From the NCBI RefSeq assembly GCF_963921235.1, contig NC_086097.1:23190001-23254000 (forward strand): DNA of 64,000 bases, read 5' to 3'. Each line of letters starts with the position of its first letter. Position 1 is the stretch's first letter. Made by a program: the position numbers and the translations under genes. The notes under the pieces were generated by a model, which was not told the DNA's origin, searched no databases, and was given only the letters and a program-made list of their open reading frames with translations. Shown in pieces: positions 4,536 to 59,117 of the stretch. The stretch is from Mobula hypostoma (Eukaryota).

Positions 4536-5131
4536 GTTTTTAAGTGTATTGCATCTAATTATAATTCAAGATGGCCTTCTGACCTATCTGGGTCTTGGCC
4601 CGAAACAACAAAAATTTCTTCCCCTTCATTGATGCCGCCTGCCTGCTGAGATTCTCTTGCACTATGTGTGTGTTGGTGCGCAAAAGATTTCTCTCTAACT
4701 GCAAATGTCCTCCAATAAGACCCTTAGGTTTTGATAGGTTATAAGATGGCATGGAGAGGTTAAAGCTTGCTCCATCCCCTCACATCTCTCTCATTTTGCA
4801 CAAGAGGTCACCTTGTGAGTTGTACAGATCCCTTGACAGGCCGAAGCCTCAATGCTGTAATAAAATTCTGTTCGAGCATTTCTGCTTTCCAAATAAGTCA
4901 GCATCGGAAAGAAAAGTGCACATCTTGCTATGTGGAAATTGTGAATTTAAATGAGGCAGCACATAATAACTATCTGTTCTCTACTCACTATTATACTAAT
5001 GTTTAATCTGTTTTAATGCTCTGTCTTAATTATTCACTTTTCTTCACCGGTGTTGAAAACAATTACATTATTCTCATTAATTAATAAAATAAGCTTTATT
5101 CACTAATTATCCCTTGAGAAGAGGAACACAA

Positions 5132-5449
5132 TGTCAAGGAATCTAGAAGAGGTTTGACCCAAAAGCAGAGTGAGCAGAGACTATTTTAGCAGTAAAGTAT
5201 ACTTTATTAATAAACTGCAAAATAACAAGCCACATGGGGGCATTAAATAAGAGAGAACCGATATTTAGCATGACAAAAGAACTAAAGGCTAGAAGCAACT
5301 GGTTGAGACTAACTGGCTCAGTGGGTGAACAAAGAACTGTGACTGAGAGCTGGGATTAAATAGGCTGCAGGTGATTTTGGAAATGGGTGGCGAGTGACTC
5401 CATTTAGCTGGGTGGAGACAGAGAGGTGCCTAACTGTGCAGGCCCGACA
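5132..5449 (-). mobile_element. Probable solo LTR (Gypsy-like layout)
   Basis: TGTC...GACA termini, minus-strand polyA signal (tttatt) near the left end, TATA-like ttaaata toward the right end; TSD not clean. Confidence 0.5.
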
Positions 5450-5699
5450 CTCAGGCTACCTGCAGCTCAGTGGCTGGTTAGCTGTTTTAGGGGAATCAAC
5501 CACAGGAGGTAGATCTGGGGGCACGTTTTGGATATATAAGGTGATGATGGCAGAAACCATCACTTGTAGGTCATTTCAACAACCACTAAGTTGGATGAAG
5601 AGCTGATGAATTTTAGGCCAGATTGCTTAGCATTAAAATGCATCATTAAGTTGCAATAAAAAGCTAAAATTAAAATACATTCAGACAATGCTGAAGCAT

Positions 5700-6315
5700 T
5701 CATAACAAGGTAAACATACTAATTGTACCAATAGAGACAAGTGGGTTCAATTTAGCAGTTATATTAAAGGACTATTTACATAATGACTCTCCCCTTGAGA
5801 AATGGGAATTAAAACTTCAGGGCATTTAATGTTTAGAAAGGACAAACAAACAAGTTGGAAAAAAAAAGAAAATTTAAAAACTGGAAAAGGAGGTGAGGTT
5901 GCCCTGTTTATAATGGGCAGCAATGGTTCAGGAACATAGGAAAAGGAACTGGTATGGGTGGAGTAAAAATAACAAGGTGTAACAAGAGAGCTATGGATAC
6001 AGACTAAAGTTGAAAATTAACTCAGACTCAATCGAAATAGACAAGATGACACAAATCCAAAGGTGAAATCATAAACAGTAGTAAGAGAAATGGAACTCTT
6101 ATGACTGAGCACAGTGTGCTCAGCGTGAGGCCTTAAAGTACAGACTCTCCATGAAGGAACGTGGCGGACAATAATAGGCCATCTTAAAGTGACGGTGGCA
6201 GCTAACTATTCTCCGGAGAATGGGAGTGCCGAAACTTGGATGCCTGCTGGTGTTCAGTTGGGACCATGACAACAAGGAATAAGGAAAAATACTTGTTGGA
6301 GTGGTTTACAAGCTG
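5700..6315 (+). mobile_element. Highly degraded CR1 endonuclease fragment split by a solo LTR
   Basis: FRKD..GKGGEVAL and WVE..NNK|..K.LVGVVY remnants on either side of 5978-6271. Confidence 0.55.
5978..6271. mobile_element. Solo LTR with 6-bp TSD
   Basis: TGTAA...TGACA termini flanked by ACAAGG at 5972-5977 and 6272-6277. Confidence 0.65.
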
Positions 6316-6575
6316 CTGTCTATGAGGAGTTTGCAAGTTCTACCTATGACAGTAGATTCCAGCCTGGGTGCCCCCAGTTTCCTCCCACATTCCAAAGACG
6401 TATGGATTAGTAAATATTCATGAGTAGTAGGCATGCTATGTTGCCACCAGAAGCATGGAGGCACTTGCGGACTGCCACCAGCATATAGTTAGACTGTGTT
6501 GGTCATTGATGCAAACAATGTATTTCGCTATATGGTTCAATGCGCATGTGACAAATAATGCTTATCTAATCTTTA
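6312..6575 (+). mobile_element. V-domain SINE fragment
   Basis: GGAGTTTGCA.GTTCT...GGGTGC.CC.GTTTCCTCCCACA core. Confidence 0.7.
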
Positions 6576-7144
6576 TCATGAATTATTAAAGATTCCAGCA
6601 GTGGAAGGGTGACAACAGTCTGGTGATTTGAACTGCTCTGCTATTAGACTCAGTGAAAAGAGGGCTTGCAGTTTACTTGTTCATGAGTTTCTGGAAACTG
6701 TGACATTTATGTGTTCATTGCTAATTATTGTACTCAGTTTGGGCCAGTACTTAATACATGGAGCTAGTTAATTAGGGGATTTGTGTTTATGCTATGCTGG
6801 TCAACCTCAGAATCCCAGGAAGAGAATAACTCTCATTATTCTTGGATGATTTATTTTTTAAATAATCAACTCGCCAATCTTTTTTTTCTTTTTTTCTCTC
6901 CCTTTTAATCCAGTGTTTCTTTCCCTCTGTCTGATTTTCTGCAACCTAAGTTGTTTTGATTTTCCCAAATTTCCATTCCTGTTATTGCTGTTTCAATCTC
7001 AGGTCTAAAGTATCCCTGTTGGATCCCACCATACACCAGGTTTTAAATTGTACCACTGGATCCATTATCCATCTGCATTTCCTGTAATTCGCAGCAAAAA
7101 TACTTCTCCAGCTGAGTGGTTCAGGAAAACATTTATCAGGCTAT

Positions 7145-7700
7145 GTCATATTCTGTCTGGGTAGTCTCCAACTTGACAGCATGAACATTGATTTCTCTCA
7201 CTTGGGTAATTGCTCTCTTTTTGTATTCCCCATTCTGGCTCTGCTCCCCCTGCCTCCTTACCCCTTCTCTTCTCCTCACCTGCTTCTGGTGCCCTTCCTC
7301 CATCCATTTCACCCATGGCCCACTCTCCTGTCCTATCAGATACCTTCTTCTTTCGCCTTTTACCTTGTTCACCTACACGTCCAAGCTTCTCATTCCATTT
7401 CTCCTTACCCCACCTTCCTCCGCTCCTGGTTTCACCTATCACCTGCCAGCTTGTGCTCCTTCCTTCCTCTCCACCTTTGTATTCTGGCATCTGCCCTCTT
7501 TCCTCTCCTGTCCTGAGGAAGGGTGATGGCCTGAAACAGTGACTGTTCATTCCTATCAGGCGTTCTCAATCTTTTTTTATGCCATGATCCTGCCATTAAC
7601 CAAGGGGTCCATGGACCCCAGATTGGGAACCTTTGCCTGACCTTCTGAGTACCTCCAGCATTTTGTGTGTGTTTCCTCTGCAGAACCCCTTGTGTTTAAT
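7145..7700 (+). mobile_element. Penelope-like element 3' end with degenerate hammerhead (7510-7544)
   Basis: GSLQ.D.MNIDF endonuclease tail, pyrimidine-rich UTR, gtcCTGAGGA..GAAA, CCAGCATTTTGTGTGT terminus. Confidence 0.8.
7557..7635. mobile_element. Tiny hAT-type MITE nested in the Penelope tail
   Basis: Imperfect TIRs CAGGCGTTCTCAATCT / AGATTGGGAACCTTTG around a short palindromic core. Confidence 0.6.
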
Positions 7701-8304
7701 CTATAGAATAACTCAAGCTGGCAAATTCTGGCTTATTAGATATTGATAACCTCCTGTTGCCAACAATAGGCTCAGCACATTAATATCATCTGTTTATTCC
7801 ATTACTTTTTTGAGTTAGATGGGTAGCAAGCAAACATTTAACTACCTAAGAGGTGCCATTGGCCACCTACTGGTTAGCCTTCTGCCATCGCACTTTGGCT
7901 AATCTTAACACCAGCAAGCAGCTGTCATTATTTGACAGTTTAATGGAGTTCACATTACCCCTCTACAGGAAATGTTTCTTCAGAAGTTGACATTGAATAC
8001 TCAGAAATGTTGAATAATAGGAGCAATGAATCAAGCGCAGGGCATTAATTAAATGCCAATTAGAACTTTTTAGTGAAAAATACTAAGATAGATACTTGAT
8101 AGATCCCAATGGAAATTAATGTGTCACAGTAGCATTACAAGTGTACAGATATACAATATTTGGAAGAGAAGTAAGAAGAATAAATGAAAAACAAGTTACC
8201 TAATATGCGCTCTGCATCTGTGCTCTCTCAAAATTAATTCATAATTACTGAACAATTATTTTCTTTTGTTAATTATATTTATTTTACCAATAGACTTATA
8301 TTTG

Positions 8305-10695: not shown

Positions 10696-10799
10696 TATTT
10701 ATCCTACTGGACTTGAAGAGCAATTGGTTGAGACATTATACAGTAAGTGAGGGCCTTCAGGTGATTGCATTCTTACACAAGTTTGTTTACCAATGGTTA

Positions 10800-11960: not shown

Positions 11961-12084
11961 AAAATTCCTGTGATGGGAAAGGATATCAGAAGGTTGTTGG
12001 AATCCGGTTTATTATCACTGACACATAGCTGTACATTGATTGTTTTGTGACAGCAGTACAGTGCAATACATAACAAATGACTAC

Positions 12085-12655
12085 AAGCAACACATACACA
12101 ATGCTGGAGGAACCCAGCAGGTCAGGCAGCATCAATGTAAAGGAATAAACAGTCGACATTTCGGGCCAAGACCCCTCTTCAGGACTGTAAAGGAAGGGGG
12201 AAGACAACAGAATAAAAAGGTGGGGTAGGAGAAGGAGGCTAGCTAGAGGGTGATAGGTGAAGCCAGGTGGGTGTGAAAGGTCAAGGGCTGGAGAGGAAGG
12301 AATCTGATAGGAGACTAGAGTGGATCATAAGAGAATGGGAAGCAGGAGGGGATCCAGACGGGTGGTGATAGGCTGGTGAGAGGAAGTAAAAGGCCTGAGT
12401 GGAGAATAGAGGAAGAGGGGAAGGGGAGGGGAGAATTACTGGAAGGAGAAATTGATATAAATGCCATCAGGTTGGAGGCTACAAAAATGGTATATAAGGT
12501 GTTGCTGTTACATCCTGAGGGTGGCCTCATCTTGGCACAAGAGGAGGCCATGGACTGACATGTCACAGTGGGAATGGGAATTGGAATTAACAAGTTTGAG
12601 CACTGGAAAGTTCCACTTTTGGCGCATGGAGAGGAGGTGCTCAACGAGGCGGTTG
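12085..12655 (-). mobile_element. Penelope-like element 3' part: GIY-YIG endonuclease C-terminus, 3' UTR, hammerhead
   Basis: NRLVEHL.S.R...FPV...NS.SHSH.DMSVHGLL.CQDEATLR coding; nested in a Rex1 tail (11985-12085 and 12655-12860). Confidence 0.85.
12150..12187 (-). ncRNA. Minimal type-I hammerhead ribozyme with intact core
   Basis: Minus strand reads CAGTC-CTGAAGA-G-GGGT-CTTG-GCCC-GAAA-T-GTC-GACTG: helix I, helix II, CUGANGA/GAAA core and GUC cleavage triplet. Confidence 0.8.
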
Positions 12656-13044
12656 TAACGATAAGTTACAATAAGAAATATATAAAATTCAATAAGTAGT
12701 GCAGTAAGAGAGCAATATAGTGAGGTAGCGTTCATGGGTTCCTTGTCTGTTCAGAAATCCAATGGCGGAGGGACAAAACTGTTCCTAAAACATTGAGTGT
12801 GTGTCTTCAGGCCCCCATACCACCTCTTTGATGGTAGCAATAAGGGGGCATGTCCTGGGTGGGGTGGGGAGAATATGGAGAAACAGAAGAAGTGGAGGAA
12901 AGGAAATGAAGACAAGAATATAAAGAGAGAGGTGGAGGAGAAAGAGAGTGAAAAATAGATGACTAAACAGAGAATTCTGAAGAGTGAGAGAGTGTGAGGT
13001 ACAATGACTAAGTGTGAGGAAGGGGAAACAAACCATTAAGATAT

Positions 13045-15171: not shown

Positions 15172-15295
15172 TTCTTGATGAAGAGTCTTGGTCCAAAAAG
15201 TCTCATTTCCATAGGTGCTGCCTGACTTGCTGAGTTCCTCCAGCATTTTATGTGTTGCTCTGGATTTTCAGCATCTGCAGAATCTCTTGTGTTTA
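15172..15295 (+). mobile_element. ~125-bp Penelope terminal unit with degenerate hammerhead
   Basis: tTGATGAagagtcttggtcc...CCAGCATCTGCAGAATCTCTTGTGTTT-type unit. Confidence 0.75.
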
Positions 15296-15873
15296 AGGTT
15301 TCCTGCATCTTCTATTTTCTTGATACTTTTTCCGTTAACTGATTTAAAAAACTGACATTTAAAAAAAAATATTATTCCAAAAAATGGAACTTAAAGCCTG
15401 AACTCATGTGAGGGTGACTAGCTCCAGTGAGTGAACAGCACTATTGAGTAGTTTGGTATGTGACAACATCGTCAGCTTAACCATTGTGGGTTGATTTCTC
15501 ACCCCTGTTGGGAAGTGAATTGTTTGCTGATTGAGAGCCTAAACTTCTAATCATTCAGACCTCAACAAAAAACGAGTTTTGATATACTTCTATGATTAAA
15601 AATTGGATGTTTGTAGCTAGTAAGTGGGTGGTGTGGTGCTGTGCTGCTAAATTGTCAGGTGGATCAGAGCATAATTACTATTTTTGCCTGGGAACTTAGC
15701 AATTCCAGATTTGTTTGTTAGTTTCAGTCTATGGGTCACTAACAGTTCACACTCAACATTTTAGGAACAGCTCGTTCCCCTTCACCATCAGATTTCTGAA
15801 CGGTCCATGAACCCATGAACGCTCTTGTAGCTTGTAGCGCTATTGAATGCTATTGTATTGTTCCTTATGTCCA

Positions 15874-16780: not shown

Positions 16781-16791
16781 GTCAGGCCTAA

Positions 16792-23450: not shown

Positions 23451-23934
23451 ATCCTATGTCCCTTACTAATTTTCTTTCTTTCAAAGTAATAATCTCTCAC
23501 TCCACTGAACCCGAGAGTATAAGCCTAGTCTGCATCATTTCTCCTTGTACAATAGCCTACTATTGGACTCAATATGCATTCCCTCTATTACAACAATGTA
23601 GATCCTTGCTTTGGCATGGAGACAAGACCAATTTAAAGTATTCTGGATAGGTTCTCACTGGGCTTTATATAATTGCAGCAGGATGTCTCTATATTTGTCC
23701 TCAAATTCTCTTGAAATATGGACCAGAATACTGTTTGCCTTTCGAATTGCCAGCTGAATTGATATATTAACTTTCAGTAATCCATGTAGAAGCACTCTCA
23801 TATCCCTCTGAATATAAATACACTTAAGTCTCTAGGAATTTAAAAAAATACTCAGTCTTCCAATGTGTTTTACTCTACCAAAACGAATGAAGCCTCTTCT
23901 CACAATCCATGTTCTCAATTTCTCTAAATTTCGG

Positions 23935-24410
23935 TATGAACATTGATTTCATTAACCTCAGATCATTTCTAATCCCTTCCTCTTCTCTCCTTTTGTATTC
24001 TCCATTCTGGATCCTCTCTTACCCTTGCTCTTCTCTTCACCCGCCCATCACCTCCTTCTCTTTCTCCTATGGTTCACTGTCTTCTCCTATTAGATTCCTT
24101 CGTCTTTAGACCTTTACCTCTTCCACCTATCACCTTCCAGCTACTTACTTCATCCCCCCCCCTTCCCCACCCATCCGCCATCATCCCCTCAACTGGTTTA
24201 CCTATCACCTGCCGGCTGGTACTACTTCTCCTCTCCTCACCTTGTTCCAGCTTCTGCCCCCTTCCTTTACAGTCCTGATGAAGGATTTCAACCTGCAACA
24301 TCGACTGCTTATTCCCCTCCATTGATGATATTTGACCTGCTGAGGTCCTCTAGCATTTTCTTTTGAGTTACTGTGGATTCCCAGCATCTGGAGAATCTCT
24401 TGTGTTTATA
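23935..24410 (+). mobile_element. Penelope-like 3' end with degenerate hammerhead (24270-24307), nested in an old minus-strand CR1 (~23480-24870)
   Basis: GMNIDF, pyrimidine-rich UTR, agtcCTGATGA...GCAA. Confidence 0.8.
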
Positions 24411-26510: not shown

Positions 26511-26657
26511 TCCACAGGCCATCTGGGTAACTGTGGTGTTCTGGTTATTTTAAAGAACTATCAAGATAATTCCACTTTAAAGAGTCACTTAATTCTCTTT
26601 CAAAATTTACTTCTGAACCTTTTTGTGCTATGTTTTCACATAGTACTCTCCAGACCA

Positions 26658-27262
26658 GAACAACACTCACAAAATGCTGGAGGAACTCAACAGGTCAGGC
26701 AACAGCCATGGAGAGGAATAAACAGTCAACATTTCAGGCTGAGACTCTTCATCAAGACTGGAAAGAAGGAGGGAAGGAACCCCCTTCCTTTTCAGTTCTT
26801 CTTCCATCTTCTCCCTTCCTTTCCAAATCAAGAATCAAGTTTAATATCGCTGGTATAGGTTGCGAAATTTGTTGTTACGTGGCTGCGGTACATTGCAATA
26901 TATAATGTTAAAATGTAAATTACAGTAAGAAATATATATATATATTTAAAAACTTAAATTAAGTGGTGCAAAAAGAGAAAAAAATAGTATCGATGTGGTG
27001 TTCATGAACTCAATGTCCATTCAAAAATCTCTTGGCAGAGGGGAAGAAGCTATTCCTGTTCCTTCGGGCTCCTGTACCTCCTCCCTGATGGTAGCAATGA
27101 GAAGAGGGTGCGTCCTGGGTGATGGGGACACCTGATGAAGGGTCTTGGCCTGAAATGTTGACTGTTCATTCTCCTCCATGGATATTGCCTGACCTGCTCA
27201 GTTCCTCCGATGTTTTGTGTGTGTTACTCTGGATTTCCAGCATCTGTAGAATCTCTTGTGCT
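26658..27262. mobile_element. Two oppositely oriented Penelope terminal units (26658-26780 minus; 27131-27262 plus) around a Rex1 tail
   Basis: Hammerhead-like motifs at 26723-26760 (-) and 27131-27164 (+). Confidence 0.75.
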
Positions 27263-27864
27263 CAAGATCAGAAACTTGTTCAACATGAAAAGTATTCTCT
27301 TCACCTACACCTGTATTGCTGTAACCAATTATTATCAATGTATCTGCTCTGTTAATGAAACTCTGTCCATAAAAGCATTTTCTCCCTGTCTGGTTTGATC
27401 AAAGCCCTACGTAATTCTGAACAGGATCTATTCATTTTTCCTACACACTTCTTAGCTGTGAAAACAATTGCATTTTCCCCTGATGAAAGCAACCAGAAGA
27501 ACTATAGTTTCTGTCTGAGAAATTTGCTGGAGGCATTGCTTGCTCTGGAGAGACCTGACAGTGGCACTTGAATAAAATTTTTATACAAATCAGAATGATT
27601 AAAAATGGTAGTCCTGAATGTTATGCAGACATGTAGTAGCCATTTGGCAAATGAAACCGCTTTGTGTAGAAACGTTTTAATCAAGAATGACATCTACGCA
27701 TTCATGCTGGTCTCTGTGTGTTCATGCAGGCACTGAAGGATTTTTGATTGTCCTGTGAGAAAGTGATAGTAGATGGTGTCACCAGAATTGTTTTGAGCCA
27801 CATAACTTGATGTGGTAGCAAGCAAGGGCACTCCCACGTAGAGAAGAAGCAAAGACGGAGTTAC

Positions 27865-28603: not shown

Positions 28604-29104
28604 GTATATCCCCCACACAGACTATCACTCTCACCTCTAAATTGATAAGATGTCTCTCTCTCAGGAGAATTAAATGAAGAGCAACACACAAAATGCTGGA
28701 GGAACTGAGAAGGTCTGGCAGCAAAAGGAAGTCTCTACGACTCCATCAGTTCTTTCTGAGGATAGAATCCCCTTTTCTGTGTTCAGCTTTTGCTTTGTCT
28801 TTCTAACCTTGAAAGAGAGAGTTGGGAGGTAGGTGGGCAATCTGCTCCCAACCATCTGTGATATTACTGCTCTCCATCTGCATCAGTTACAGGTTTTTCC
28901 TCTTTACTTTGATCAAGGGAGCACCAACCTCTAATTGCCTGCAATGAATGAGCTACTCAGCCCTTGATCTATTGAGACAGTGTGCTTGACCGTGGTTTCT
29001 GACTGCCTTGTGCAATTTTCTTCTCAATATCTCAATGGCTTTTCAGAAAGTTGGTTTAGAAAGCTTGTAGTATAAAAAGGTTCTATTTAATCCCATCTAC
29101 AAAA

Positions 29105-30909: not shown

Positions 30910-33289
30910 GATGTCACCACGTAATACTCAGAGATTAATTTACTTGCAGGTATTTGCAGTAGATACAAAGAAACACAACAGAATCAATGAAAAACTACAC
31001 ACAACAAAGATGGACAAACAAACAATGTACAAAAGAAGACAACATGTGCAAATATATAAATAAATAAGTAAATAAATAATACTGAGAACGTGAATTGTAG
31101 AATCCTTGAAAGTGAGTCCATAGATTATGGAATTTGTTCAGTCTTTAGGTGAGTAACATTGTTTTCCAGGATTGACTTTAAACTGTGGGAAGTTGGAATT
31201 ACAGAACAGCAACCTCAAAATTAAACATGGAAAGATCTTGGAAAAAAAATCATTTTTTTGTTATAATATGGGAGGAGCATTACTGCCTGGTATGGAAACA
31301 CCAATGCCCAAGAATGGAGAAGCCTACAAAAAGCAGTGGATACTGCCCAATCCATCACAGGAAAAGCCCTTCCCATCGTTGAGCATATCTACAAGGAGAT
31401 ACCACACCACCAGGTTCAGGAACAGTTATTACTCTTCAGCCACCAGACTCCTGATCCACTTTGGTTCTGGACTTCCAATTGACCTACAGACTTCGGTCTG
31501 TATTTTTGACTCCCGGACTGGCTGATGATGGGACCCCGAACTCCAGGCTGGCACTCTAGGTGTGCCGACTCTCCAGCCCTCCGGCTTCGATTGGGGGACC
31601 CACCGACCTGGGACAGCCTGACATCCACAGATGCCCTTCGTCACCCACGCCCGTTGGCCTTCGAATGCGGAGCGTGGAGCTGAGATCTGGACTTCAGCTG
31701 TCTTTTATCACCCATCCCCCGTGCTAGATGGGGATGGTTTGAGGCAGCATACTAAAGATAGAATGCTAGAGGATTCAGACTTGCACACCCAATTCCTTTA
31801 CTGGAAGGCTTATTGCTTGAAGTCAGTGTAGTTGTCACATTCCATTGTTATTTATCTCACGTAGACGTTGTAAATATCAGCGTACATGGCATTGGAAGGT
31901 TCTTCTTGTCCCTTGCAGCAGAGCCCCAACGGCACATTGACCTGCATTCTCATTACATTGACAATCTGTCTGGTTTGAGTACCTTTGATTCTCTGATGTT
32001 CAAAAGAGAACATCAGCTAATAAGCTCAGTATCGCAAAGAATTTGTCATTGGAAAGGTGGCATTTGAGGACAGGATTGTTTAATTTTTTTCCAAAACAAA
32101 TGGCATAGTAAAATGTAAACTGACAGAATAAGTGCTTTCAAAGCCTTTGCAAACAGTTTAGAAGAAAACCTAAGCCATCAAGATAACTTTTCATTACATC
32201 ACTTTTCTCCTAGTCGGTAACCGTGCCCCTTTTTAATAATTTAGACAGCTACTCGATCGAGAATAATTTTCAGTTTTGAATTTTCACATGAATTTTCATC
32301 GTGGCTGATCCTGTTGTAAAAATTCATGGGACAAGACCTTTTAGATCGCTCCTGATTGGTATTTGAATTATGAATGAACTGCCTGAGTATCTACATGGCA
32401 GGGAGACAGAAGAGAGGCCATGATTTGTTTCACGTTATTTCTGCCAAACAGTTAATGGTAAAATGCAAGAGATGAGAAATAATGCTTAAATAGACTTTAC
32501 AAACGCAGGAAGCTGCTACGTTTGGAGCCCGTCAGTAGGACTCCAGAGATGGAGAAAATGTGTAATCCTGCTGCCAAGAGGCACTCATTGATGCCAGTAC
32601 TGATTAACTGAAGGTTGGTTTCAGAGCAGTGGTTTCAAAATTTTGCAATTATTTAAATAAAGAGACCAGGCATGTCATGGGATTTAAAATGTACATCAAA
32701 AAATATCTTGCATTTCGTGATAAGCAAATCAACCATAGAACTCTGGGCTGATTAGTCTCTTTTCTAATACAAACATTGCATTTGGGATTGGTGAGGGAAA
32801 ACATAAAGGTGAAAATCATGGAGAAAATAAATTGCAGTTCAGAGTAACACGCAAAGTGCTGGAGGAACTCAGCAGGTCAGCCAGCATCTAGGGAAAGGGA
32901 GCAAGAGTCAATGTTTTGGGCCGAGGCCCTTTATCAGGACACATCCCCGTTGAATAGCTTCAATCCTTCCCCTCCTCGTCCCTTGCCTTTCACTGCAGCA
33001 TGCACGATGGAGTCGGAGTTCTTACTTTCAGCCATGCCATTCCATGCTTTGTGGCGAGAAAAAACAATTAACGTTTCAGATCTGGAAGTTGTCATCAGAA
33101 CTGGAAAACAATTAATGCAAGTTTGTTTTTAATAATGGAGAAAGAGAGGGAGATTGACGGGGTTTAAGCCCAAGGATGTACTTTCAAGCTACTTGGTTCC
33201 CTGTAGGTCCAATCAAAATTGGAGGCTCATGCTGTACAAACAATATACTAGAGTGCATTACACTTTCTGAGTTTATATTTTATTTTTAT

Positions 33290-34110: not shown

Positions 34111-34177
34111 GCCCCATTAGAACGGAACAGGCCTGCCAACTGCAGTTGTACTATGAAATACAGGCGGAGAATGAAGG

Positions 34178-34600
34178 GTCCTGATGAATGTCTCGGCCCA
34201 AAATGTCGACTGTTTATTCTTCTCCGTAGATTCTGCCTGACTTGCTGAGTTGCTCCCGGGTTTTGTGTTTGTTACTATAGAACGATTAGCCCCAGGAGTC
34301 CATGGTGTTGACTCCAAATGTGTGGCATCCATTGTCATAAGGAAAAATGTGGACAAGAAAGCTCTTCTGGACCATACCTGCACACAGATTGTCGCAAACC
34401 CGATCTTGCAGGAAAGACCAGCGCCATTGTGACTTGACACACTGACCTTTACCTGGCAGAGGGCAGAAGGCAGCTCTGAGATTCTGCAGATGATGGAAAT
34501 CTTGAGCAACACACACAAAATGCTGGAGGAACTCAGCAGGTCAAGCAGCATCTCTGGAGAAGAATAAACAAAAATCGATGTCTCGGGCCAAGATGCGCAT
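34178..34600. repeat. Inverted pair of Penelope terminal units
   Basis: 34178-34280 plus and 34478-34600 minus are reverse-complementary copies. Confidence 0.75.
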
Positions 34601-35635: not shown

Positions 35636-36816
35636 TGTGGCCGTGTGTGACCCTCACCATACAATTGCAGGAGCAGCTAGTGGTCGCCTGGGTTCCTCTG
35701 ACTTGGATGGAAGAGAATTGCGGTCGCAGCCTGGGGAACCCATAAAAATGTGGTGCCAACATCTGTCAAAGTGCAACGTGGAAACTCATGCATGTTCAAG
35801 CGCAAAAAGAACATGCAATAGACAGAGCTAGGTGATCACATAGCCAAGAGATCAGTTCAAATTTCAGTACCTCTCATAGTGAATGCTAGCAGACAATAAA
35901 TCAATTATCTGCAGGATAAAAAAACAGAGAATACAGGAAGCATTCAGCAAAGATTGTAGGACCAGGCAGAATTCCAGCCGTAGTACTGAAGTCCTGTGCT
36001 CCAGAACTGGTTGTGTCTGTAGTTAAGTGTTCCAGTCCAGTTACAACGTTGGTAATCTGTTTGACAGTAGAAAATTGCCCAGGTCCATCGTGTGGGTAGG
36101 AAGCAGGGCACATTGTCACCCTGTCATTCTACTCCTAATCACCAACAAAGTGATGGAAGTGGTTCTCAACAGCACTATTAAATGACACTTAATCTCCAAT
36201 AATCTGCTCATCGAAGCTGGCAAGCCCAGAGTCGGAGGCCCAAAGGAGTTACCGGGGTCAGAGGTCAGTGTGAGTCTGGAAATTGAGGCCTGAAGGTCAA
36301 GCCCATAATCAGCGCACTCTGGAGTTTAGGGCCGAACAGAAGTTGGGGGAGTCTGATGTTGGAGACCCAATGGTTGCAAGTCTGAGAGCCCAGAGCCAAG
36401 GACTGGAGGCCTGAAGGTGGCCTGTCCTGGTGTTTGAGGCCTGTATATGCGTGTGAGTGGGTGAGAAGGTGAGAAGCAGGCTTGCTCTGCTGTTTTTGTC
36501 TTGTTTTCTTGTTGCTGTTGTTGCTGCTGCTTGTGCTGTCCTGTTGAGAATTGTGGACATGCTGTGTCGGCGTCAGAATGTGTGGCGGCCCTTGCGGGCT
36601 GGCCCCAGCACAGGTGTGTTCATTGTTAATGCAAACAAAGTATTTCTGTGATCTTCGATTTGTTTTGAACTGTATGTTTTGGTGTACATGAGATAACTCT
36701 GAATCACTAGTGCTCATTTTGGGTTTTGCCAGAGCCTCTCAGCTAAAAATTTCATTCCTTGATTCAAACACAGGCCACCGTTAGGGAAGAAGTGAGGCAG
36801 GGCAGGTGAGGTCCAT

Positions 36817-36953
36817 CAGTCTTGAAGAAGGGTCTCGGCCTGAACCATGAACTGCTTATTCATTTCCATAGATGCTGCCTGACCTGCTGAGTTCCTCCGG
36901 CATTTTGTGTGTGTTACTTTGGAGTTTGAGCATCTGCGGAATCTCTTGAGTTT
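36817..36953 (+). mobile_element. Penelope terminal unit with degenerate hammerhead
   Basis: cagtctTGAAGAagggtctcggcctGAA...CATCTGCGGAATCTCTTG. Confidence 0.8.
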
Positions 36954-37204
36954 AAAGCAAGAAGTGAACCATTCGGAGGAGGGTAAACTAGGCAAGGAAA
37001 TACAGACTTGAGTGGTATTGGGGGAGTGTACTGGAACAGAGGGACGACAGTACACATGCACACTTGAAGGTAGCAACGAAGGTAAATTAAATCGTTCAGC
37101 AACCGAATATTTGCCAAAACAGAAGACTTAGGGGAAGAGGAAAAATATTTGTTTTTCAATCTCTTCGGTCGCTTCAGTTTATCTGATTGCAAACTCCACA
37201 CACT

Positions 37205-37545: not shown

Positions 37546-37747
37546 GGTTTGAAGGGTGTGGAGGGGAGAACTCCTGTGTGAAGATCAGTCTGTATTGCTC
37601 TGGAAAATGGTGGCTTGGTACTTGCTTGCACAGTCCTGGGAAGTTATGAGGAAGTGCCTGAGATCCCCCTCACAACAAAATGCAGGAGGAACTCAATGGG
37701 TCGGGCAGAATCTCAAGTTCAAGTTTATTGTCATCTGACTGTACATG

Positions 37748-37822: not shown

Positions 37823-39716
37823 TATAATCTTATGTGTGCCTCTTATCATCTTGTATACCTCTATCAATTCACCTCTCATCCTCATAAACAACCTGATCCC
37901 GATTCAGTTACAAGAGATTATACCAACCATTCATCTCGCACCTACCAATGTGGGAAAGCTGAACAGTTCAAAGGATAGCAAAGCACTTCAAACAGAAACA
38001 CAATGCATGGAAAACACAAGGTAAAATAAAACTGCAACACATCAAGGGAACCAGATATGAAGAACACAGTTTTAAAAACAAACAAGGTATTTCTTCCCTG
38101 TTGGTTTTCTCTTTGTTTAATTCGGGATTATGTCAAAGTGTTCACACTTCGTTAATCGGTGATAATGTGATTTAATACAAAATGTGGAGCTTTGTAACAG
38201 ACTCTCCTCAGATCAGAGGGGAGAGCCGATTTTGTTCACTCTTCGCAATCTTCACTCCATTCTCCAGCGCTTGGAGCCTTTCACTGTTCCAGTGTTTGGA
38301 CAATTTATACACCAGTCCAGATAGACTGAAAAGACAGTGTGCTGGTCAGGACGAGGGCCGATTTTGCTCGTTCTCCACGATGGTAATCTCTGTGGCATTG
38401 AGGCTACGAAGACTGTCCCGGGGCTAAGGCTAATATGATGAACTGATAAGCAAGGCTTTAGGCCTACTCTGGGTTGCCCCAGGGTCTGGATCTGAGGACT
38501 CAATTTTGGTTTGGAGTGCAGTTGTTGGCTTCATTTGTTTGTATGACTTTTACTTCATTTCCTTCTCTTGTGCATCGAGTATTGATCTTTTATTTTTATG
38601 TTTATTCTTTTTTTTTCTTTAAATTGAGTTCTTGTTTGTTGCCTTGTAGCTAGCTACTTGTGAGCAAGCAAATCTCAAGGTTGTATAGTTTCAACATATT
38701 TTGATAATAAATGTATTTGAATCTTGAGCAGGGGACACTAACAGATAAATAATGTGTAACACACACAAAATGCTAGAGGAACTCATCAGGTCAGGCAGCA
38801 TCTATGGAAATGAATTAGCAGTCGACGTTTTGGGCCGAGATTGGAAAGGAAGGGGGAAGAAGCCAGAATAACAAGGTGGGGGAGGAGCGGGTACAAGCTG
38901 GCAGGTAACAGGTGAAGCAAGACTGAGTGAGCACATGGTCGAAGAGTTGGCGACCAACAGAGATCAGAGAGGGAGAGCAGTGAAAGAGGGTCTCACTGAA
39001 CTCCTTCTCTACAGACATACTAGGAAGCAATTTTGCAGTGGAGCAGCAAACTATGAGCACAAATAACGGATAAAGAACGGTGACGTCCGGGCTCTAGAGA
39101 GTAATGGTTTGATTGAACGCGATATTTGGACGGAGACTCAAGTGTAGGGCCGTATTGGAAAGGTTCAATTGAGACTGTGGGCTTCTGGCCTCAGAGTGCA
39201 TTGAGGTGACTGAACACGATTTTTGGACATTGGTTTAGGCGCCGGGCCAGATTGAAAAGGTCAGGATGTCAGGTCCCGAGGCGAGGGCCGGGCCAGTTTG
39301 GGTTGCTGTTCCATGACTCGACACTGTGCTGAACTATGCTGAGCTATGGGATGTTCTTTGCAGACCAGAATGCTATTTGCTTGTGGTTATTGTCTGCAAG
39401 GTGTGTTTTTTTCTCTCTGCACGTTCAGTGTTCAATAGTCTTTTTTTATGGGATTTTTTTGTGGAAATGATGTGTTTTTCTCTGCATATTGGGTGCTCAC
39501 AGTCAATATGTTGATTTTGGGTTTCTTTCTTTCATGGCTTCCTCTTAGGAGATGAATCTCAAGTTTCTATAATGTATACATACTTCGATGTTAAAAGTAC
39601 TTTAAACTTTGAACAAATAATGGATTAAGGAGTTCAAAAGGGCAGTTAATTGCACACTGTAACAACTATACAACAGTTTAGATGTCAGCATTTCACATGG
39701 AAAATAAACTGGGAGA

Positions 39717-44720: not shown

Positions 44721-44859
44721 ATCTTTGGAAATTTCTGGCATTACTTCTGCCGTATTTCAATTTTCTATTTTAAAATTTGTCTCAAGAGAACACAATAAAC
44801 CTGCTAATGAAATGTTTGTCACCATTTTGTCAACCCCATCCTCAGTCAATTATAGTTCA

Positions 44860-45740
44860 ACATTAACAAAATGCTGGAGGAACTCAGCAGGTCAGGCAGT
44901 ATCTATACAAAGGAATGAACAGTCAATGCTCCGAGCCGATACCCTTCATCAGGACTTGGGAGGAAGGCGAAAGATGCCAGATTAAGAAGGTGGGGAGGGG
45001 AAGGAGGACATACTAGAAGGTGATTGGTGAAGTCTGATTGCCGAAGAGTGGGGTTGGGGGGGGATGAAGGAAGATACTGGGAGGTGATAGGAGGAAAAAG
45101 TAAAGAGCTGGAGAAGAAGGAATCTGAAAATGGACCGGGGAGAAAAGGAAGGAAGAGGGACACCAATGGGAGGTGATAGGCACGTAAGAAAAAGAGGTAA
45201 GAGGCCAGAGTGGGGAATTGAAGAAGAGGGAAGAGGGAGGAGGGAAAAAAATTACCAGAAGTTAGAGAAATCGATGTTCATGCCATCAGGTTAGAGGCTA
45301 CCTGTCACTACGTTCAGATATGGCCCAAGTACAGAGCAAGAGACACTGAAGCGGGTCGATAGTTCACAGACTTTAATGCGAGCAGAGTTAGAAGGAAAAG
45401 AAAACAATAAACGCTTGACTAAACAGGGCCATTAACCAAAACTCTCAAATGGAAAATGAAGCCAACACTGCGGCTGAAAGGAATAACTAAATATAAAACG
45501 AATACCACTAGTCTTCAGAGTCAGTTGACTCAACAGTCCAATTTCTCAGGCATGGCCGAATGCAAGCAGGCAGCAAAACATTGCTGTGCTTTGCTCAAGT
45601 CTCAGCAAGTGCTACGACAAAAAGAATGGAGTTAAATACCTTTACGATGAAATTCATGAGCGCAATTGCCGTATCTGCAGCGCTACCGAATCCCTGGTTG
45701 TGACACTATCTATCCAGAATATGAGGCATTGCTCCTCCTA
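44860..45740 (-). mobile_element. Penelope-like 3' fragment split by a solo LTR
   Basis: Terminal unit, mutated hammerhead 44920-44956, purine-rich UTR; DGMNIDF coding continues after 45710. Confidence 0.85.
45303..45705 (-). mobile_element. Solo LTR, 403 bp, 5-bp TSD
   Basis: Perfect TGTCAC...GTGACA termini; CTACC/CTATC flanks; host element contiguous across it. Confidence 0.85.
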
Positions 45741-52812: not shown

Positions 52813-53155
52813 AACACAAAAAATGCTGGAGGAACTCAGCAGGTCAGGCAGCATCTATGGACATGTATAGATAATCGACATTTCAGGCCGAGACTCTTCT
52901 TCAGGACTGAGAAGGAAGGGGGAAGATGGCAGAATAAAAAGATGGGGGGAGAGAAAGAAGGCTAGCTGGAAGGTGACAAATGAAGCTAGGTGGGTGGGAC
53001 AGGTCAAGGGCTGGAGAAAAAGGAATCTGACAGGAGAGGATAGTCAACCATAGGAGAAAAGAAAGGAGGAGGGGATCCAGGGAGAAGTAATAGGCAGGTG
53101 ATAAGAGATTAATGGTCAGAGTGGGGAATAGAAGGGGGTGGATTTGTTTACCATT
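52813..53155 (-). mobile_element. Penelope 3' fragment; hammerhead at 52873-52909 has an intact core but weakened helix II
   Basis: Minus strand CAGTC-CTGAAGA-AGAGTCTCGGCCT-GAAA-TGTC-GATT. Confidence 0.8.
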
Positions 53156-53156
53156 A

Positions 53157-53728: not shown

Positions 53729-54144
53729 AATCAAAATTCAAATATTAAGTGGCCTAGACAGCGTGAATGTGATTAAGATGTTTTCTATAATGGGTAGGAC
53801 TAGGACCAAAGGGCATAATCTTAGAATTGGGGCTTGTCCATTGAGGACAGACATGAGGAGGAATTTCTTTAACCAGAGGCTGGTGAATCTGTGGAATTCA
53901 TTGCCACAGATGGCTGTCGAGGCAAGTCATTGAGTATATTTAAAGCGGTGTTTTTTAGGTTCTTGATTAGTCTCAGATGGCGGGGAGAAGGTAGGAGAGT
54001 GGGGTTGAGAGGGTTAATAAATCAGCCATGATAGAATGGCAGAGGAGACTCAATGGGCCAAGTGGCCTAATTCTGCTCCTGTGACTCATGGTCTTATAGT
54101 CTAGTCCTAGGTGGAACATTAAGCTTATTGGTCACACAAAACAT

Positions 54145-54285
54145 ACTGCAGATGCCGCTAATCTTGAGCAATACACACAAAATAGTGGAGGAACTTAGCA
54201 AGTTAGGCAGCATCTATGGAAAGGAATAAACACTTGATGCTTCAGGTCGAGACCCTTCATCAGCATTTTGTGTGTGTTATTCTAA
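54145..54285 (-). mobile_element. Penelope terminal unit with fold-back end
   Basis: Minus unit ends at cccttcatcag and is followed directly by inverted cattttgtgtgtgtt. Confidence 0.7.
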
Positions 54286-56143
54286 ATTTATTATTGATGG
54301 CTTATGATCATGGTGTCTCAAAATTGTCTGGAGTTAAGAAGAAATAGGGAGTCAATCTCTGCCCTCAAGAAAGCACATTATTCATCTTTCCCCTTTACCT
54401 ATCTACAGATAAATATATAAAAATAAATTATTAACATCATTGAGATGGATGCTGCTATATCAGCTTGCTTTCAGTTTCCATTTTTCAATTTGACCTGCTG
54501 TGGTATTTAGATCTTAGCTCTAGTTAGCTCTGGTTACAACTTCCCATCGTTTGATAGAGTCATTAATATAGTGCAAAAAAGAGATTGACATCTGCCTTCA
54601 TTCTTTTCATCAAAAACAAAACATTTCAATAGAAAAAAAAACTCAATTATGGCAAAGCCATTAATAGCTGATTACCCACCTGACACAGTGTATAAGAAAA
54701 TGAATAAGAACAGTTCTTGAGCAGAAGCTTATCTCTGTCCTAGTCAGGCTAAAATTAGAATTGATGATAGGAATATGAGGGACCATTTGTTCTGATATAG
54801 ATTACATCTCCCTAACCTTAGGATGGTTTAAACATTTTGAATCACTCAATCCATATTTTGAACAGAGAAATTAATCAGGAGTCCTTTAATGCGTCTATTG
54901 CTGTCATATTCATGATAATGCAATCCCTCACTGACCTAACACTCGGTCTGTCAGGTCAGAAGATTTTCTCAGGACATTATTCACGGCCACTACATAAGAA
55001 GCTCGGTGAAGCACAAAAACATCATTTGATAGTGCCAAGAAAGAAAGAAGAGGAAGCAAAAAATGCCCGGTCTCTTTACACTAAATGCTCTGCTGGATGA
55101 GATGGTTGTCCTTTAAAGGCTGGAGAGACATGATCCATGGAAAATAAGTCACTTGAGATAAAAAATGGGTGAAGTAGTTATTTTGAAGTAAACCTGATGT
55201 GCCTCTAAGGGATCAAAAAGAAATTAAAAAGTGTCGTCCTTCAAAGGGTTAACATTGTAACTGCTCAGGACGAGAGTGCATTACAAAGGGTCAAGAAATA
55301 GTGGGATCGCCAAATGGTTTAATCATTTACAAATCATCAGGGGGAATAGCAACAACAACAGAAACAAAACAAAACAACAACAGCAAAACAATAGCACAAG
55401 AGACTGCAGATGCTGGAAATCCAGAGCACGACACACAAAATGCTGAGGAACCAAAAGGTCAGGCAGTACCTAGAGAAATAGACAGTCGAGACCCTTCCCT
55501 TTTATGTTTCACTTCTATTGCTCTAAAATTATTTCCAGCTGGAGGATTCTAAGGGATCCCTGTACTGTGATTCAAATTCAGATTCAGATTTATTTATCAC
55601 ATGTACCTTGAAACAGTGTGCTATTTATGTCAACAGCCCACACATCGAAGGATGTGCTGGGGATCTCTGCAAGTGGCATCATGCATTCCTGGCCAGCATA
55701 GCATGCCCATAATGGTCGGCAGATCAACACAGAACACAACAGAACTTAGCATACCGTGCAACAACAGTGACAAGCCTCCATCCTACCCACCAACCGGCAG
55801 TCTTCTAACCCTAAGATAGGCCGTCGTTGGCCTCCAGTCTCAGTGGATGGTGGATTTATAGACACTGGGCCCCGACTTCCCCAGCAGACTTGCAGAGATT
55901 CGTCATCAGGACTTGACCTTAGGACTTCAGATTAACTTTAAGGCTTCAATCCAGATGTTTGATCCACCTTCAGGCTTCAACCTGGACATCCAATCGACCT
56001 TCGGGCTGTGATTTCAGTTCCTAGCTCAATGCCAATTTTATCTGCTCTCTCATTTGTTGCTGTGCATTCATACACCTACATTCCAAGCTCAGATACCTAT
56101 TCCTTCAAATTCTCCTTCTTTATAACTTTCACCTTTTAAGCTA

Positions 56144-57398
56144 CCATGAAGGGTCTCAGCCCAAAACATTGACTCTTTATTCCCCTCCAAAGATGCTGCC
56201 TGACCTGCGGAGATCCTGAGCTCCTCCGACACTTTGTGTGTTACTCTGGACTTCCATAAGACCATCAGACATAGGAGTAGAATTAGGCCATTCAACCCCT
56301 CGAGTCCACTCCAGTATTTCATCATTGCTGATCCCGGATCTCATTCAATCCCATACACCTGCCTTCTCACCATATCCCTTGATGCCCCGACCAATCAGGA
56401 ATCTATTAACTTCCATTTTGAATCTACCCACAGAATTGGCCTCCACCGCAGTCTGTGGCAGAGCATTCCACAGATTCACCACTCGTTGGCTAAAAAAAAT
56501 TCCCTCCTTACTTCTGTTCTAAAAGGTCGTCCCTCAGTTTTGAGGCTGTGCCCTCCGGTTCTGGATACCCCCACCAGAGGGAACATCCCCTCCACATCCA
56601 CCTTATCTAGTCCTTTCAACACTTGGTAGCTTTCAATGAGATTCACCGCTCCCCAGCATTCTTCAAAATTCTAGTGAGTACAGGCCCACAGCTGCCAAAC
56701 ACTTCTCATTTGTTAAACCCTTCATTTTCAGGATTATCCTCATAAACCTCTTTTGGGCTCTCTCCAATAAAAATACATCCTTTTTGAGATAAAGGGCCCA
56801 AAATGGTTCACAATACTTCAAGTGTGGCCTGACTAGTGTCTTATAAAGCTTCAGCATTATCCCCTTGTTTTTGTATTCTGTTCCCCTTGAATTAAATGCC
56901 TTCTTTACCAGAGACGCAACCTGTGAATTAACCTTATGGGAATTTTGTACAAGGACTCCAAAGTCCCTTTGCATCTCTGATGTTTGAATTTTCTCCCCAC
57001 TTCGATAATAGTCTGCACTATTGTTACTTTTACCAATATGCATTATCATACATTTCCCAACACCATATTCCATGTCTGTTTTTTGCCCAGTCTTCTAATT
57101 TGGCTAAGTCCTGCTGCAATTGCATTGCTTCCTCAGCACTACCTACCCCTCCATCTGTCTTTGTATCATCTGCAAACTTTGCCACAAAGCCAACAATTCC
57201 ATAATACAAATCATTGACAAACAATGTGAAAAGTAACGTTCCCAACACTGACCCCAGAGGAACACCACTAGTCACTGGCAGCCTACCAGAAAAGGCCCTC
57301 TTTATTCCCACTTGCTGCCTCCTGCCTGTCAGCCATTCCTCTATCCATGCTAGTATATTTTCTGTATATTTCCAGCATCTGCAGAATCTCGTGTTTAT
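56144..57398 (+). mobile_element. Penelope terminal unit split by a CR1
   Basis: 56144-56254 continues as atttccagcatctgcagaatctc near 57367. Confidence 0.7.
56255..57365 (-). mobile_element. CR1 RT-to-3' fragment
   Basis: VTSGVP.GSVLG, AKFADDTK, LYKTLVRPHL.YC. Confidence 0.9.
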
Positions 57399-57734
57399 GT
57401 TTTTGAAAAACTTACTGCTGTGATCATCATTACCATTACGACAGGGTTCATTTTAAAATTTGGCTCAAAAACCCTCCTGTAAAGCATCATGAAATGTTTG
57501 AAGACGTTAAAGACACTTAAGGGATTATGTTTCTCCAATAAGTAAAGGAAAATGGGGTCATCATGGAAAAGTGGTTGCTGAGGTAAGTGTTGACCCATAA
57601 TATTACCAAATGGGGAGATACTTCTATTTCTTACCTTCACAACACTGCTGCAATCTTTATGTTATAAGTTCTTATGTACAAATAGCAGAGCAGCCAGATC
57701 TCATGAATCTGAACGGTTCAGATGCCTGAATTTG

Positions 57735-57992
57735 GGGTGGGACAGTAAGGTAGTGGTTAATGTAACACTATTAAAGTGCTTGTGACCTGGGTTCAATTCA
57801 GCCACTGTCTGTAAGGAGTTTGTATATTCTCTCTGTGAATGAGTGGGATTCCTCTGTGCACTCCAGAGTCTTCCCACTTTCCAAGGCTATACGGATTAGT
57901 GGGGTAATTGTTTACCTGTGTAATTAAGCTGTACGGGCTCGTTGGGCAAGAAGGGCCCGCAATCATGTTGTATCTCTAAAAGAAAAGCAAAT
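57735..57992 (+). mobile_element. V-SINE
   Basis: GTAGTGGTTA A-box, GGGTTCAATTC B-box, V core. Confidence 0.75.
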
Positions 57993-57994
57993 AA

Positions 57995-58482
57995 AATAAC
58001 CGAAGAGTTTCTGAAGATCCTGGAAATCCAGAGTAACACACAAACAACGCTGGAGGGACGCAGCATCTCTGGAAAGGAACAAACAGTCAACGTTTCAGGA
58101 CTGGAAAGGAAGGGGGAAGAAGCCAGAATAAGGAGGTGGGAGGGAGGAGTGCAAGCTGGCAGGTGACAGGTGAGACCAGGTGAGGGGGAAGGTGGGTGGG
58201 TGGGATGAAGGTAGAAGGGGCGGGATGAAGTAAGAATTTGAGATGTGATAGGTGGAAGAAGTAATGGGCTGACAAAGGAGGAGTTTGATAGAAGAGGAGC
58301 GTAGAACATAGGAGAAAGAGAAGGAAGAGGGTCACCAGAGAGCAATAACGGTCAGGTGAAGAGAAGAGGTAAGAAGGGAACCAGAATGGGGAATGGAAAA
58401 AAAGAGGGAAGGGGAGAGAGACAAATTTCTGCAAGTTAGACAGAATTAATGTTCATGCCATCAGGTTGGAGGCTACCCAGCA
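57995..58482 (-). mobile_element. Penelope 3' fragment, hammerhead internally deleted
   Basis: Terminal unit, purine-rich UTR, LGSLQPDGMNI coding. Confidence 0.8.
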
Positions 58483-58993
58483 AATAAATGAATATTTGAT
58501 CAATTTCAACTTATGCAAATCATTTACAAATATGATTTTGCACGCTTTATATCATGCAAGTTATCATTTCCAAGTTGTCTAGTGAAAATCAGGAAATTTA
58601 ATGCAGCTGATGCTTGTCTGGCATCACTCGTTCCATCAATGCCAGCACAGGTACTGCAGCAAGCATTCCCTCAATTGCTGACAGAAACAAGAGCTTCTGT
58701 GCAATACGAACATCCTTTGCTGTTCACTCCGCTGCACTGAGTCCTGGGGTTGATACCGAAGGAAGAAACCCGAGTATAAAAGACCGAACTTGAAGAGTCT
58801 GGGAATTGAGGTCGAAGGTCAAAGCCCTAGGTTGGCATATCCGTATCCTGAAGTTAGAAGACTGGTCTCTGTGAGTCTGGGAGTCTAGGCCTGAAACTGG
58901 AGGCTGGAGGCTGGAGGCCCAGAGGCAACTGCGTTGAAGATGGAAGCCTGTCAGTGTGAGTGAGTAGGGAGGAAAGGGGCCTGTTTTGCTGTT

Positions 58994-59117
58994 CCCGATG
59001 AAGGATCTCGGCCCAAAATGTCGACTGTTAATTTCTTTCCATGGATACAGTCTGACCTGCTGAGTTCCTCTAACATTGTGTGTGTGTGTGTAGCATCTGC
59101 AGAATCTCTTGTGTTTT
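58994..59117 (+). mobile_element. 124-bp Penelope terminal unit with perfect 12-bp TSD
   Basis: TGTTTTGCTGTT at 58982-58993 and 59118-59129; unit begins at the hammerhead core. Confidence 0.85.

What the first reader, a model, noticed from the sequence alone, without database searches (positions are those of the whole stretch)
4580..59035. About 18 dispersed hammerhead-ribozyme motifs carried by Penelope-like ends
Seen: the consensus AGTC-CTGATGA-A-GGGT-CTCG-GCCC-GAAA-C-GTC-GACT recurs at ~4590, 7510, 12150, 15172, 24270, 26723, 27131, 32905, 34178, 34575, 36817, 38820, 44920, 52873, 54232, 56144, 58085 and 58994, on both strands. Established: Penelope-like elements carry minimal type-I hammerheads with a vestigial palindromic helix III that are proposed to cleave as dimers. 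Most copies here are disabled, often at CpG sites (cGAAA>cAAAA). Inference: a very large reservoir of ribozyme relics, which would lie inside host pre-mRNA if the region is intronic.
Basis: partly seen in the sequence, partly recalled or inferred. Interest (0 to 1): 0.7.

Follow-up and report, generated by a model that had tools for sequence, protein, structure and literature searches.

The report
Dead Penelope ends carrying minimal hammerheads
These are about twenty short, decayed end-pieces of a Penelope-type jumping gene in what is likely a ray or shark genome, carrying a small self-cutting RNA motif already known from such elements; nearly all are broken and probably inert, and the one oddity is that about half begin at the motif's front edge, likely where the element's RNA starts.

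Summary
All 18 places carry the repeat; a profile search finds 21 arms, 7% of the window. They are 3' ends of a Penelope-like element: the longest starts in a GIY-YIG C-terminus whose best relatives are ray sequences, then a pyrimidine-rich UTR, the hammerhead and an optional ~35-nt tail. The majority motif fits the published minimal type I hammerhead, but Rfam finds none, 1 of 19 arms passes a descriptor, decay is CpG-driven (35% vs 13%) and the core shows no constraint. No host exon was found, so 'intronic' is untested. Likely run-off copying of uncut RNA to its 5' end; a splice acceptor there is the main rival. This scan already reported the family and the pile-up many times in this genome and others. 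Known kind; low interest.

The parts
12086..12669 (-). Longest arm: end of the PLE ORF, 3' UTR, hammerhead, short 3' end (no tail)
12439..12663 (-). Broken C-terminal 75 codons of the GIY-YIG endonuclease region (one in-frame stop)
   Evidence: 52% identity to P0006, E 3e-19 pairwise
12150..12187 (-). The only hammerhead that passes the descriptor (C3 at 12182; helix III palindrome weakened to AUGU; predicted cut between 12155 and 12154)
7125..7699 (+). Long arm with ORF end; interrupted at 7560-7633; U16.1 lost; tail partly kept
23932..24409 (+). Long arm with ORF end and tail; A13 lost
44852..45323 (-). Long arm with ORF end, no tail; two core changes
57997..58511 (-). Long arm with ORF end and tail; 18-nt deletion through the core
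52814..53139 (-). Medium arm; core letters intact, helix I 4 of 5 and helix II 3 of 4 pairs
38753..38923 (-). Medium arm; deletion through the CUGANGA box
26655..27266 (.). Head-to-head fold-back cassette: minus arm 26655-26780, plus arm from about 26781 to 27266 with tail, split by an unrelated ~305-nt repeat at about 26829-27130; flanks match at 10 of 12 letters
58992..59117 (+). Short arm starting at helix I, with tail, flanked by an exact 12-bp target-site duplication
   Evidence: 12 of 12; 1 of 506 mismatched flank pairs did as well
15173..15299 (+). Short arm starting at -2, with tail
32836..32941 (-). Short arm starting at about -3
34177..34281 (+). Short arm starting at about -3
36816..36957 (+). 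Short arm starting at about -5, with tail
54131..54267 (-). Short arm starting at about C3, with tail; an inverted piece of the element's own 3' end abuts its 5' junction (weak score)
4590..4678 (+). Short arm starting at +8 (no CUGANGA box)
34474..34594 (-). Short arm starting at +10, with tail
55391..55497 (-).
56146..56256 (+). Short arm starting at +3
28678..28723 (-). Fragment 3' of the hammerhead only (starts +54)
37669..37713 (-). Fragment 3' of the hammerhead only (starts +51)
57363..57394 (+). Tail-only scrap
   Evidence: E 2.4e-4

Best explanation
The motifs are the hammerheads in 21 dispersed, 5'-truncated and decayed ends of an endonuclease-bearing Penelope-like retroelement, likely inert where they now sit, and the many short copies that begin at helix I were likely made by the element's reverse transcriptase starting inside an uncut RNA and running off its 5' end. 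Shown here: the order ORF end - pyrimidine-rich UTR - hammerhead - about 70 nt - optional ~35-nt tail; two 3' end points (about +100 and +135 from core C3); a fold-back cassette; a 12-bp target duplication; neutral, CpG-led decay; 5' ends piled at helix I. From established work: PLE pseudo-LTRs carry such motifs, which cut weakly and only as dimers or with the element's protein, and PLE reverse transcription starts at two internal sites that define the tail (PMC4209133, PMC11167929). Inferred (about 50%): transcription starts at the A of helix I's 5' strand (-4); priming at the tail sites near the RNA's 5' end gives 105-140-nt run-off copies, while priming at the downstream repeat gives the long copies with variable truncation. 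Every arm that spans the cut site must come from uncut or re-joined RNA.
For: Homology of the ORF end to GIY-YIG/RT-bearing ray and shark sequences. Tail present in 10, absent in 10, unclear in 1 of 21 arms (hand-scored, tallied). Core letters decay like flanking DNA: 16 of 164 against 218 of 1,665 non-CpG letters, p=0.27; no covariation above shuffles in 13 arms. 10 of 21 5' ends fall in a 17-nt window; simulated p 1e-4 under an exponential null fitted to the data, 0.013 under a steeper one. In contigs of two organisms the only loose ends with unrelated flanks among the rows shown (12 of 346) are at -4 and -5, 198-249 contigs each, agreement 0.34-0.38. The majority first letter outside the -4 junction is G in element sense in both runs, as a copied cap would give (cap-G known for full-length L1, one passage of PMC11702581). 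None of the 21 arms starts at the cut site (+28).
Against: No RNA 5' end was measured; the runs held are contigs. The -5 row is partly an artefact, because the reference copy has a private change at -6 and that row's consensus resembles the element's continuation. The cap-G is only a majority letter without counts. Exact starts in this window are -2, -3, -3, -5, 0 and -2, not mostly -4. The initiator-like word at -4 is weak evidence (13 such words in 717 nt), whereas the AG at -4/-3 is one of only 2 strong acceptor-like sites, and in D. virilis Penelope the intron ends at helix I while transcription starts about 120 nt further upstream (PMC4209133, PMC2377424). One apparent helix-I start (27130) proved to be an interruption and was removed. 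could not test starts at the cut site, and other scan notes report some.
Confidence: 0.8

Rival explanations
1. Same element, but the 5' boundary is a splice acceptor: short copies come from spliced RNA (the element's own short first exon or host exons joined to the AG at -4/-3), so flanks ending in AG make junctions appear at -2 to -5.
For: The AG at -4/-3 follows a long pyrimidine tract and is one of 2 such sites in the 717-nt majority sequence. The D. virilis Penelope intron ends at the 5' end of helix I (PMC4209133). An RNA-labelled run shows a loose end at -3 (14 contigs; the RNA label is a guess).
Against: No shared upstream exon in the short arms here and low agreement of the loose letters genome-wide. 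At 58992 the target duplication abuts the arm, leaving no room for an exon. PLE copies are known for keeping their introns (PMC8557442 passages).
Confidence: 0.25
2. Same element, but copying of long RNA stalls or is cut short at this spot, because the new DNA folds back on helix I or because the pyrimidine tract upstream yields purine-rich DNA that ends synthesis or favours 5' joining.
For: The boundary coincides with both the end of helix I and the start of the tract. Helices I and II are predicted at 0.9 or more pairing probability. Small deletions also hit this spot in two arms.
Against: The enzyme meets the RNA structure from its 3' side, so a stall should leave ends near +30, where none lie. 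The fold is not unusually stable (z -1.65 for the majority, -0.57 for the best copy). Nine arms read through the spot.
Confidence: 0.15
3. The short copies are a separate non-autonomous family (SINE-like or retrozyme-like) descended from one short master that starts at the hammerhead.
For: Shared start, own target duplication at 58992; animal retrozymes are reported to derive from PLE pseudo-LTRs (bioRxiv 10.64898/2026.07.22.740005).
Against: Short and long arms are no closer within class than between (0.238 and 0.246 against 0.242; permutation p=0.42, 10 vs 8 arms; low power). Both 3' end types occur in both classes. No head-to-tail arrays.
Confidence: 0.07
4. The copies form a working reservoir of ribozymes that cut host pre-mRNA as dimers and are under selection.
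For: High density (one arm per 3 kb); one arm keeps core and helices.
Against: 1 of 19 arms passes, with a weakened helix III and no intact partner; no constraint or covariation; the double-hammerhead fold of the majority motif scores -19.9 against -33.7 kcal/mol for the best dimer fold (tertiary contacts not modelled); published minimal hammerheads cut poorly even as dimers (PMC4209133); no exon or strand bias seen.
Confidence: 0.04

Closest known systems
Minimal type I hammerheads (min-HHR) in pseudo-LTRs of metazoan PLEs (Cervera and De la Pena 2014, PMC4209133; Xena, Poseidon, Neptune of fishes; thousands of single motifs in coelacanth and Xenopus)
   Same: Core boxes, 5-bp helix I, extra base between 9 and 10.1, G10.1-C11.1, palindromic 15.2-16.2, place 3' of the ORF, mostly single dispersed copies.
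   Different: Helix II is 4 bp rather than the 6-8 bp of the schistosome and fly examples; no shark or ray entry in the paper's text read or in the 2 supplement files searched (file 1 not searchable); the paper does not describe a pile-up of 5' ends at helix I in the parts read.
EN+ Penelope-like elements, Neptune/Nematis type (C-terminal GIY-YIG, CX2-5CxxC linker; PMC8557442, PMC3846280)
   Same: ORF end then pseudo-LTR, optional 30-40-bp tail, adjacent inverted truncated copy, short target duplications.
   Different: No RT or linker survives in this window; the clade rests on relatives P0004 and P0006.
Poseidon of Anolis carolinensis, PAc (Frangieh et al. 2024, PMC11167929)
   Same: Two 3' end points that bracket a tail downstream of the hammerhead; copies made from uncut RNA.
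   Different: Other clade; its start sites lie in an AC-rich loop, while the ends here are GU-rich in element sense; the in vivo run-off to the RNA 5' end is my inference.
Non-LTR retrozymes (bioRxiv 10.64898/2026.07.22.740005)
   Same: PLE-derived type I hammerheads in vertebrate repeats, reported for one cartilaginous fish.
   Different: Retrozymes are head-to-tail arrays with a hammerhead in each unit; these copies are dispersed and some retain the ORF end.

Membership tests
PLE minimal type I hammerhead | Core CUGANGA, GAAA, UH in type I order | tested here: met
   Met by the majority of copies; all 11 fixed core letters survive in 3 of 19 arms; 1 passes core plus helices, 0 in 10 shuffles
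PLE minimal type I hammerhead | Helix I of 4-5 bp and helix II closed by G10.1-C11.1 | tested here: met
   5 bp and 4 bp, pairing probability 0.9 or more in the majority motif; 83% of cells paired, 21-51% when slid
PLE minimal type I hammerhead | Extra base between positions 9 and 10.1; palindromic vestigial helix III | tested here: met
   Extra A in 14 of 15 arms and about 95% of contig depth; ACGU in the majority, intact in 2 arms only
PLE minimal type I hammerhead | Compensatory changes across families | tested here: inconclusive
   None above shuffles among 13 decayed arms, as expected for dead copies; N7 is the one core-box position listed with two common alternative letters in contigs (seed-biased)
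PLE minimal type I hammerhead | Self-cleavage as a dimer or with protein | not testable with these tools
   Needs an in vitro assay
Rfam hammerhead families | Match to a curated covariance model | tested here: not met
   0 hammerhead hits in the window at E up to 1 and 0 hits for the best copy at E up to 10
EN+ Penelope-like element | ORF ending in a GIY-YIG endonuclease region just 5' of the repeat | tested here: met
   55 hits at E up to 0.001; 5 of 13 scanned hits have a GIY-YIG match, 1 above Pfam's cut-off; 5 arms carry the last codons
EN+ Penelope-like element | Telomerase-like RT in the same ORF | tested here: inconclusive
   Absent from the window; relative P0004 has a YIDD motif upstream of its GIY-YIG motifs
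EN+ Penelope-like element | Optional 30-40-bp tail, inverted truncated partner, target duplication | tested here: met
   Tail in 10 of 21 arms; one fold-back cassette; one exact 12-bp duplication
Neptune/Nematis clades | CX2-5CxxC linker between RT and EN | tested here: inconclusive
   Present in relatives P0004, P0006, P0034; the window does not reach it; no RT tree made
Non-LTR retrozyme | Head-to-tail units each with a hammerhead | tested here: not met
   All arms dispersed or inverted

The most novel reading that the evidence does not exclude
The piled 5' junctions are a fossil 5' RACE: this element's capped RNA starts on the first base pairs of hammerhead helix I, and internal priming near the 5' end is the main in vivo route, giving tens of thousands of ~105-140-nt insertions from uncut RNA. 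The ribozyme would then sit about 30 nt from the cap, so cutting would decap the RNA and act as an off switch, not as a step needed for transposition.
Probability: 0.3. Interest if true: 0.55.

Novelty: new member of a known kind. Interest (0 to 1): 0.25.

Why it matters
As a ribozyme finding it is ordinary: dispersed dead minimal hammerheads from truncated Penelope-like elements have been known since 2014. What could matter is the geometry of the ends. The role of the PLE hammerhead and the in vivo template are open questions, and sharp 5' and 3' boundaries in a very abundant family would let one test, from genome sequence plus one CAGE library, where the RNA starts and whether cut RNA is ever copied. 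This window adds 21 arms to a pattern that this scan has already noted repeatedly.

Tried and rejected
No whole genome was held, so no genome-wide count or intron test. Rfam: no hammerhead hit. Word-index protein search with the ORF end among longer proteins: nothing; Pfam on the ORF end itself: nothing meaningful. Motif scans of metagenome and viral contigs: 0 hits; a 20-mer gave 12 metagenome loci, all matching only the 20-30 letters and rejected as chance. Run search: no RNA holder listed; contigs of two RNA-labelled runs carry the repeat but the label is a guess, so nothing is claimed on expression. Depth profiles of laid contigs follow seed matches to the reference copy and were not used for counts. 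Host exon search: 149 of 172 stop-to-stop ORFs of 75 codons or more, only two LINE RT relics and one sub-threshold hit; short exons would be missed. 27130 as a helix-I start: rejected, it is an interrupted arm. Target duplications: 1 of 23 hits clearly above the null. An ORF start within the repeat: both ATG frames close within 27 codons in the majority sequence, uninformative. Own-lineage test for short copies: negative, low power.
Full report
Positions written -n or +n count from core C3 in element sense; the predicted cut lies between +27 and +28.

Observation. Iterated nhmmer gave 22 hits and a longer model 23 hits, with none in the reversed window. These are 21 arms (9 plus, 12 minus; p=0.66), one continuation and one tail scrap, covering 4,604 of 64,000 nt. 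Thirteen of the 18 places keep a recognisable CUGANGA box. The window is 41.7% G+C with CpG at 0.28 of expectation and 39% self-repeated, as in a methylated vertebrate genome.

What the repeat is. Five arms reach upstream into the same peptide end. The longest gives 75 codons with one stop; phmmer returned 55 relatives. The 8 looked up come from rays, a skate and the whale shark. Five of 13 scanned have a GIY-YIG match, one above the cut-off; P0004 holds a YIDD motif, a CX4CxxC linker and the GIY-YIG motifs, and P0006 is 52% identical to the window peptide. This is the C-terminus of an endonuclease-bearing Penelope-like element, probably Neptune type; the host is likely a ray or shark. The ORF end is followed by a pyrimidine-rich UTR of about 300-370 nt, the hammerhead, about 70 nt, and an optional tail: 3' ends fall near +100 or +135, tail present in 10, absent in 10, unclear in 1 (hand-scored). 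26655-27266 is a head-to-head cassette with flanks matching at 10 of 12, and 58992-59117 has an exact 12-bp target duplication. All of these are described PLE features (PMC8557442 and PMC3846280, passages). The family is very abundant in two organisms (89,441 and 79,756 contigs laid; not copy numbers).

The hammerhead. The majority motif has a 5-bp helix I, the CUGAUGA box, an extra A, a 4-bp helix II closed by G-C, GAAA, a palindromic ACGU and C17, which fits the minimal hammerhead of PMC4209133 (parts 1-2 of 4 read). Both helices are predicted at 0.9 or more, but the fold is not unusual (z -1.65), the exact open-core fold has probability 0.02, and the double-hammerhead fold scores -19.9 against -33.7 kcal/mol for the best dimer (no tertiary terms). 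Rfam finds no hammerhead. Three of 19 arms that cover any of the motif keep all 11 fixed core letters; only 12182 (minus) passes my descriptor, against 0 in 10 shuffles. CpG letters differ from the majority at 35%, others at 13%; non-CpG core letters (9.8%) do not differ from downstream DNA (13.1%, p=0.27); 13 arms show no covariation above shuffles. The copies are decaying neutrally and likely inert. No host exon was found in 149 of 172 ORFs, so the intronic idea is untested.

The 5' pile-up. 5' ends of the 21 arms: ten in -6..+10, nine between -18 and -586, two at +51 and +54, none at +28 (with 27130 corrected to -18; before that the count was 11). Simulated chance is 0 of 20,000 under a uniform null, 1e-4 under a fitted exponential and 0.013 under a steeper one. 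Contigs of two DNA runs laid on 12138-12262 gave, among 12 rows shown of 346, loose ends with unrelated flanks only at -4 (227 and 198 contigs) and -5 (249 and 220); the other rows continue as element. The -5 row is contaminated by a private change in the reference at -6. The majority first letter outside -4 is G in element sense in both runs, as a copied cap gives in full-length L1 insertions (one passage of PMC11702581), but no counts are available. That call could not test starts at +28, and one search showed only 24 of 2,912 rows.

Mechanism. For the Anolis Poseidon protein, reverse transcription starts at two internal sites that define the tail, uncut RNA is the main substrate, and the hammerhead cuts only with protein (PMC11167929, parts 1-2 of 4 read; its supplementary figures were not readable as text, and Fig. 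S2 may bear on 5' ends). I infer that here the RNA starts at helix I, so priming at the 5' copy of the tail gives short run-off insertions, and priming at the 3' copy gives long truncated ones (about 50%). The main rival is a splice acceptor: the AG at -4/-3 is one of 2 strong acceptor-like sites, the initiator-like word is common (13 hits), and in D. virilis the intron ends at helix I with the start 46 nt upstream of a 75-nt intron (PMC4209133; PMC2377424, passages). Against it, no shared exon is seen and the duplication at 58992 abuts the arm. A stall at the fold and a separate short master are less likely.

Novelty. The motif class, its place in PLEs and its mass dispersal are published. 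I saw no paper on this ray or shark family or on the 5' pile-up in searches (listings, and the passages named above); the library lacks most subscription papers, Repbase and Dfam could not be searched, one supplement of PMC4209133 was not searchable, and supplements of the retrozyme preprint (part 1 of 5 and passages read) are closed. This scan has already reported the same family and the same pile-up, with the same transcript-start reading, in many windows of this and other genomes; my reading was noted before those look-ups, but repeats by other agents are not independent evidence. Verdict: real, correctly named, a new member of a known kind; interest 0.25.

Noticed in passing
window 51.8-52.5 kb (+) and 57.0-57.45 kb (-): Broken LINE-type reverse transcriptase relics (RVT_1), not Penelope by their motifs (CR1/L2-like, label recalled).
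   Followed up: no
window 63614-63691: Imperfect hairpin with a weak mir-15 match, 33.6 bits against a gathering score of 57.3; probably a chance or repeat-derived hairpin.
   Followed up: partly
P0002, P0005, P0012, P0028: Ray gene models (ATP synthase subunit C3, RECQL5, neuromedin-U receptor 1, NYAP1-like) include pieces of this element's endonuclease C-terminus: exonised copies or annotation artefacts.
   Followed up: no
window 55345-55731 and 59021-59327: Two short arms share the TG-rich sequence beyond their tails, and a neighbouring ~150-nt block in permuted order: insertions into the same host repeat, or a second permuted element.
   Followed up: no
window 26781-26828: The plus arm of the cassette carries a tandem duplication of the ~22 nt just before C3, ahead of the inserted repeat; another boundary at the helix I edge.
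   Followed up: partly
window 12178 (N7 of the core): In contigs N7 is U (36-39% of depth) or C (42-43%) in both organisms, while none of 14 window copies has C: a better-conserved subfamily with C at N7 probably exists elsewhere.
   Followed up: no
window 12086-12669 and 52814-53139: These two arms share a ~69-nt gap in the UTR and are 80% alike over 320 nt, marking a subfamily.
   Followed up: no
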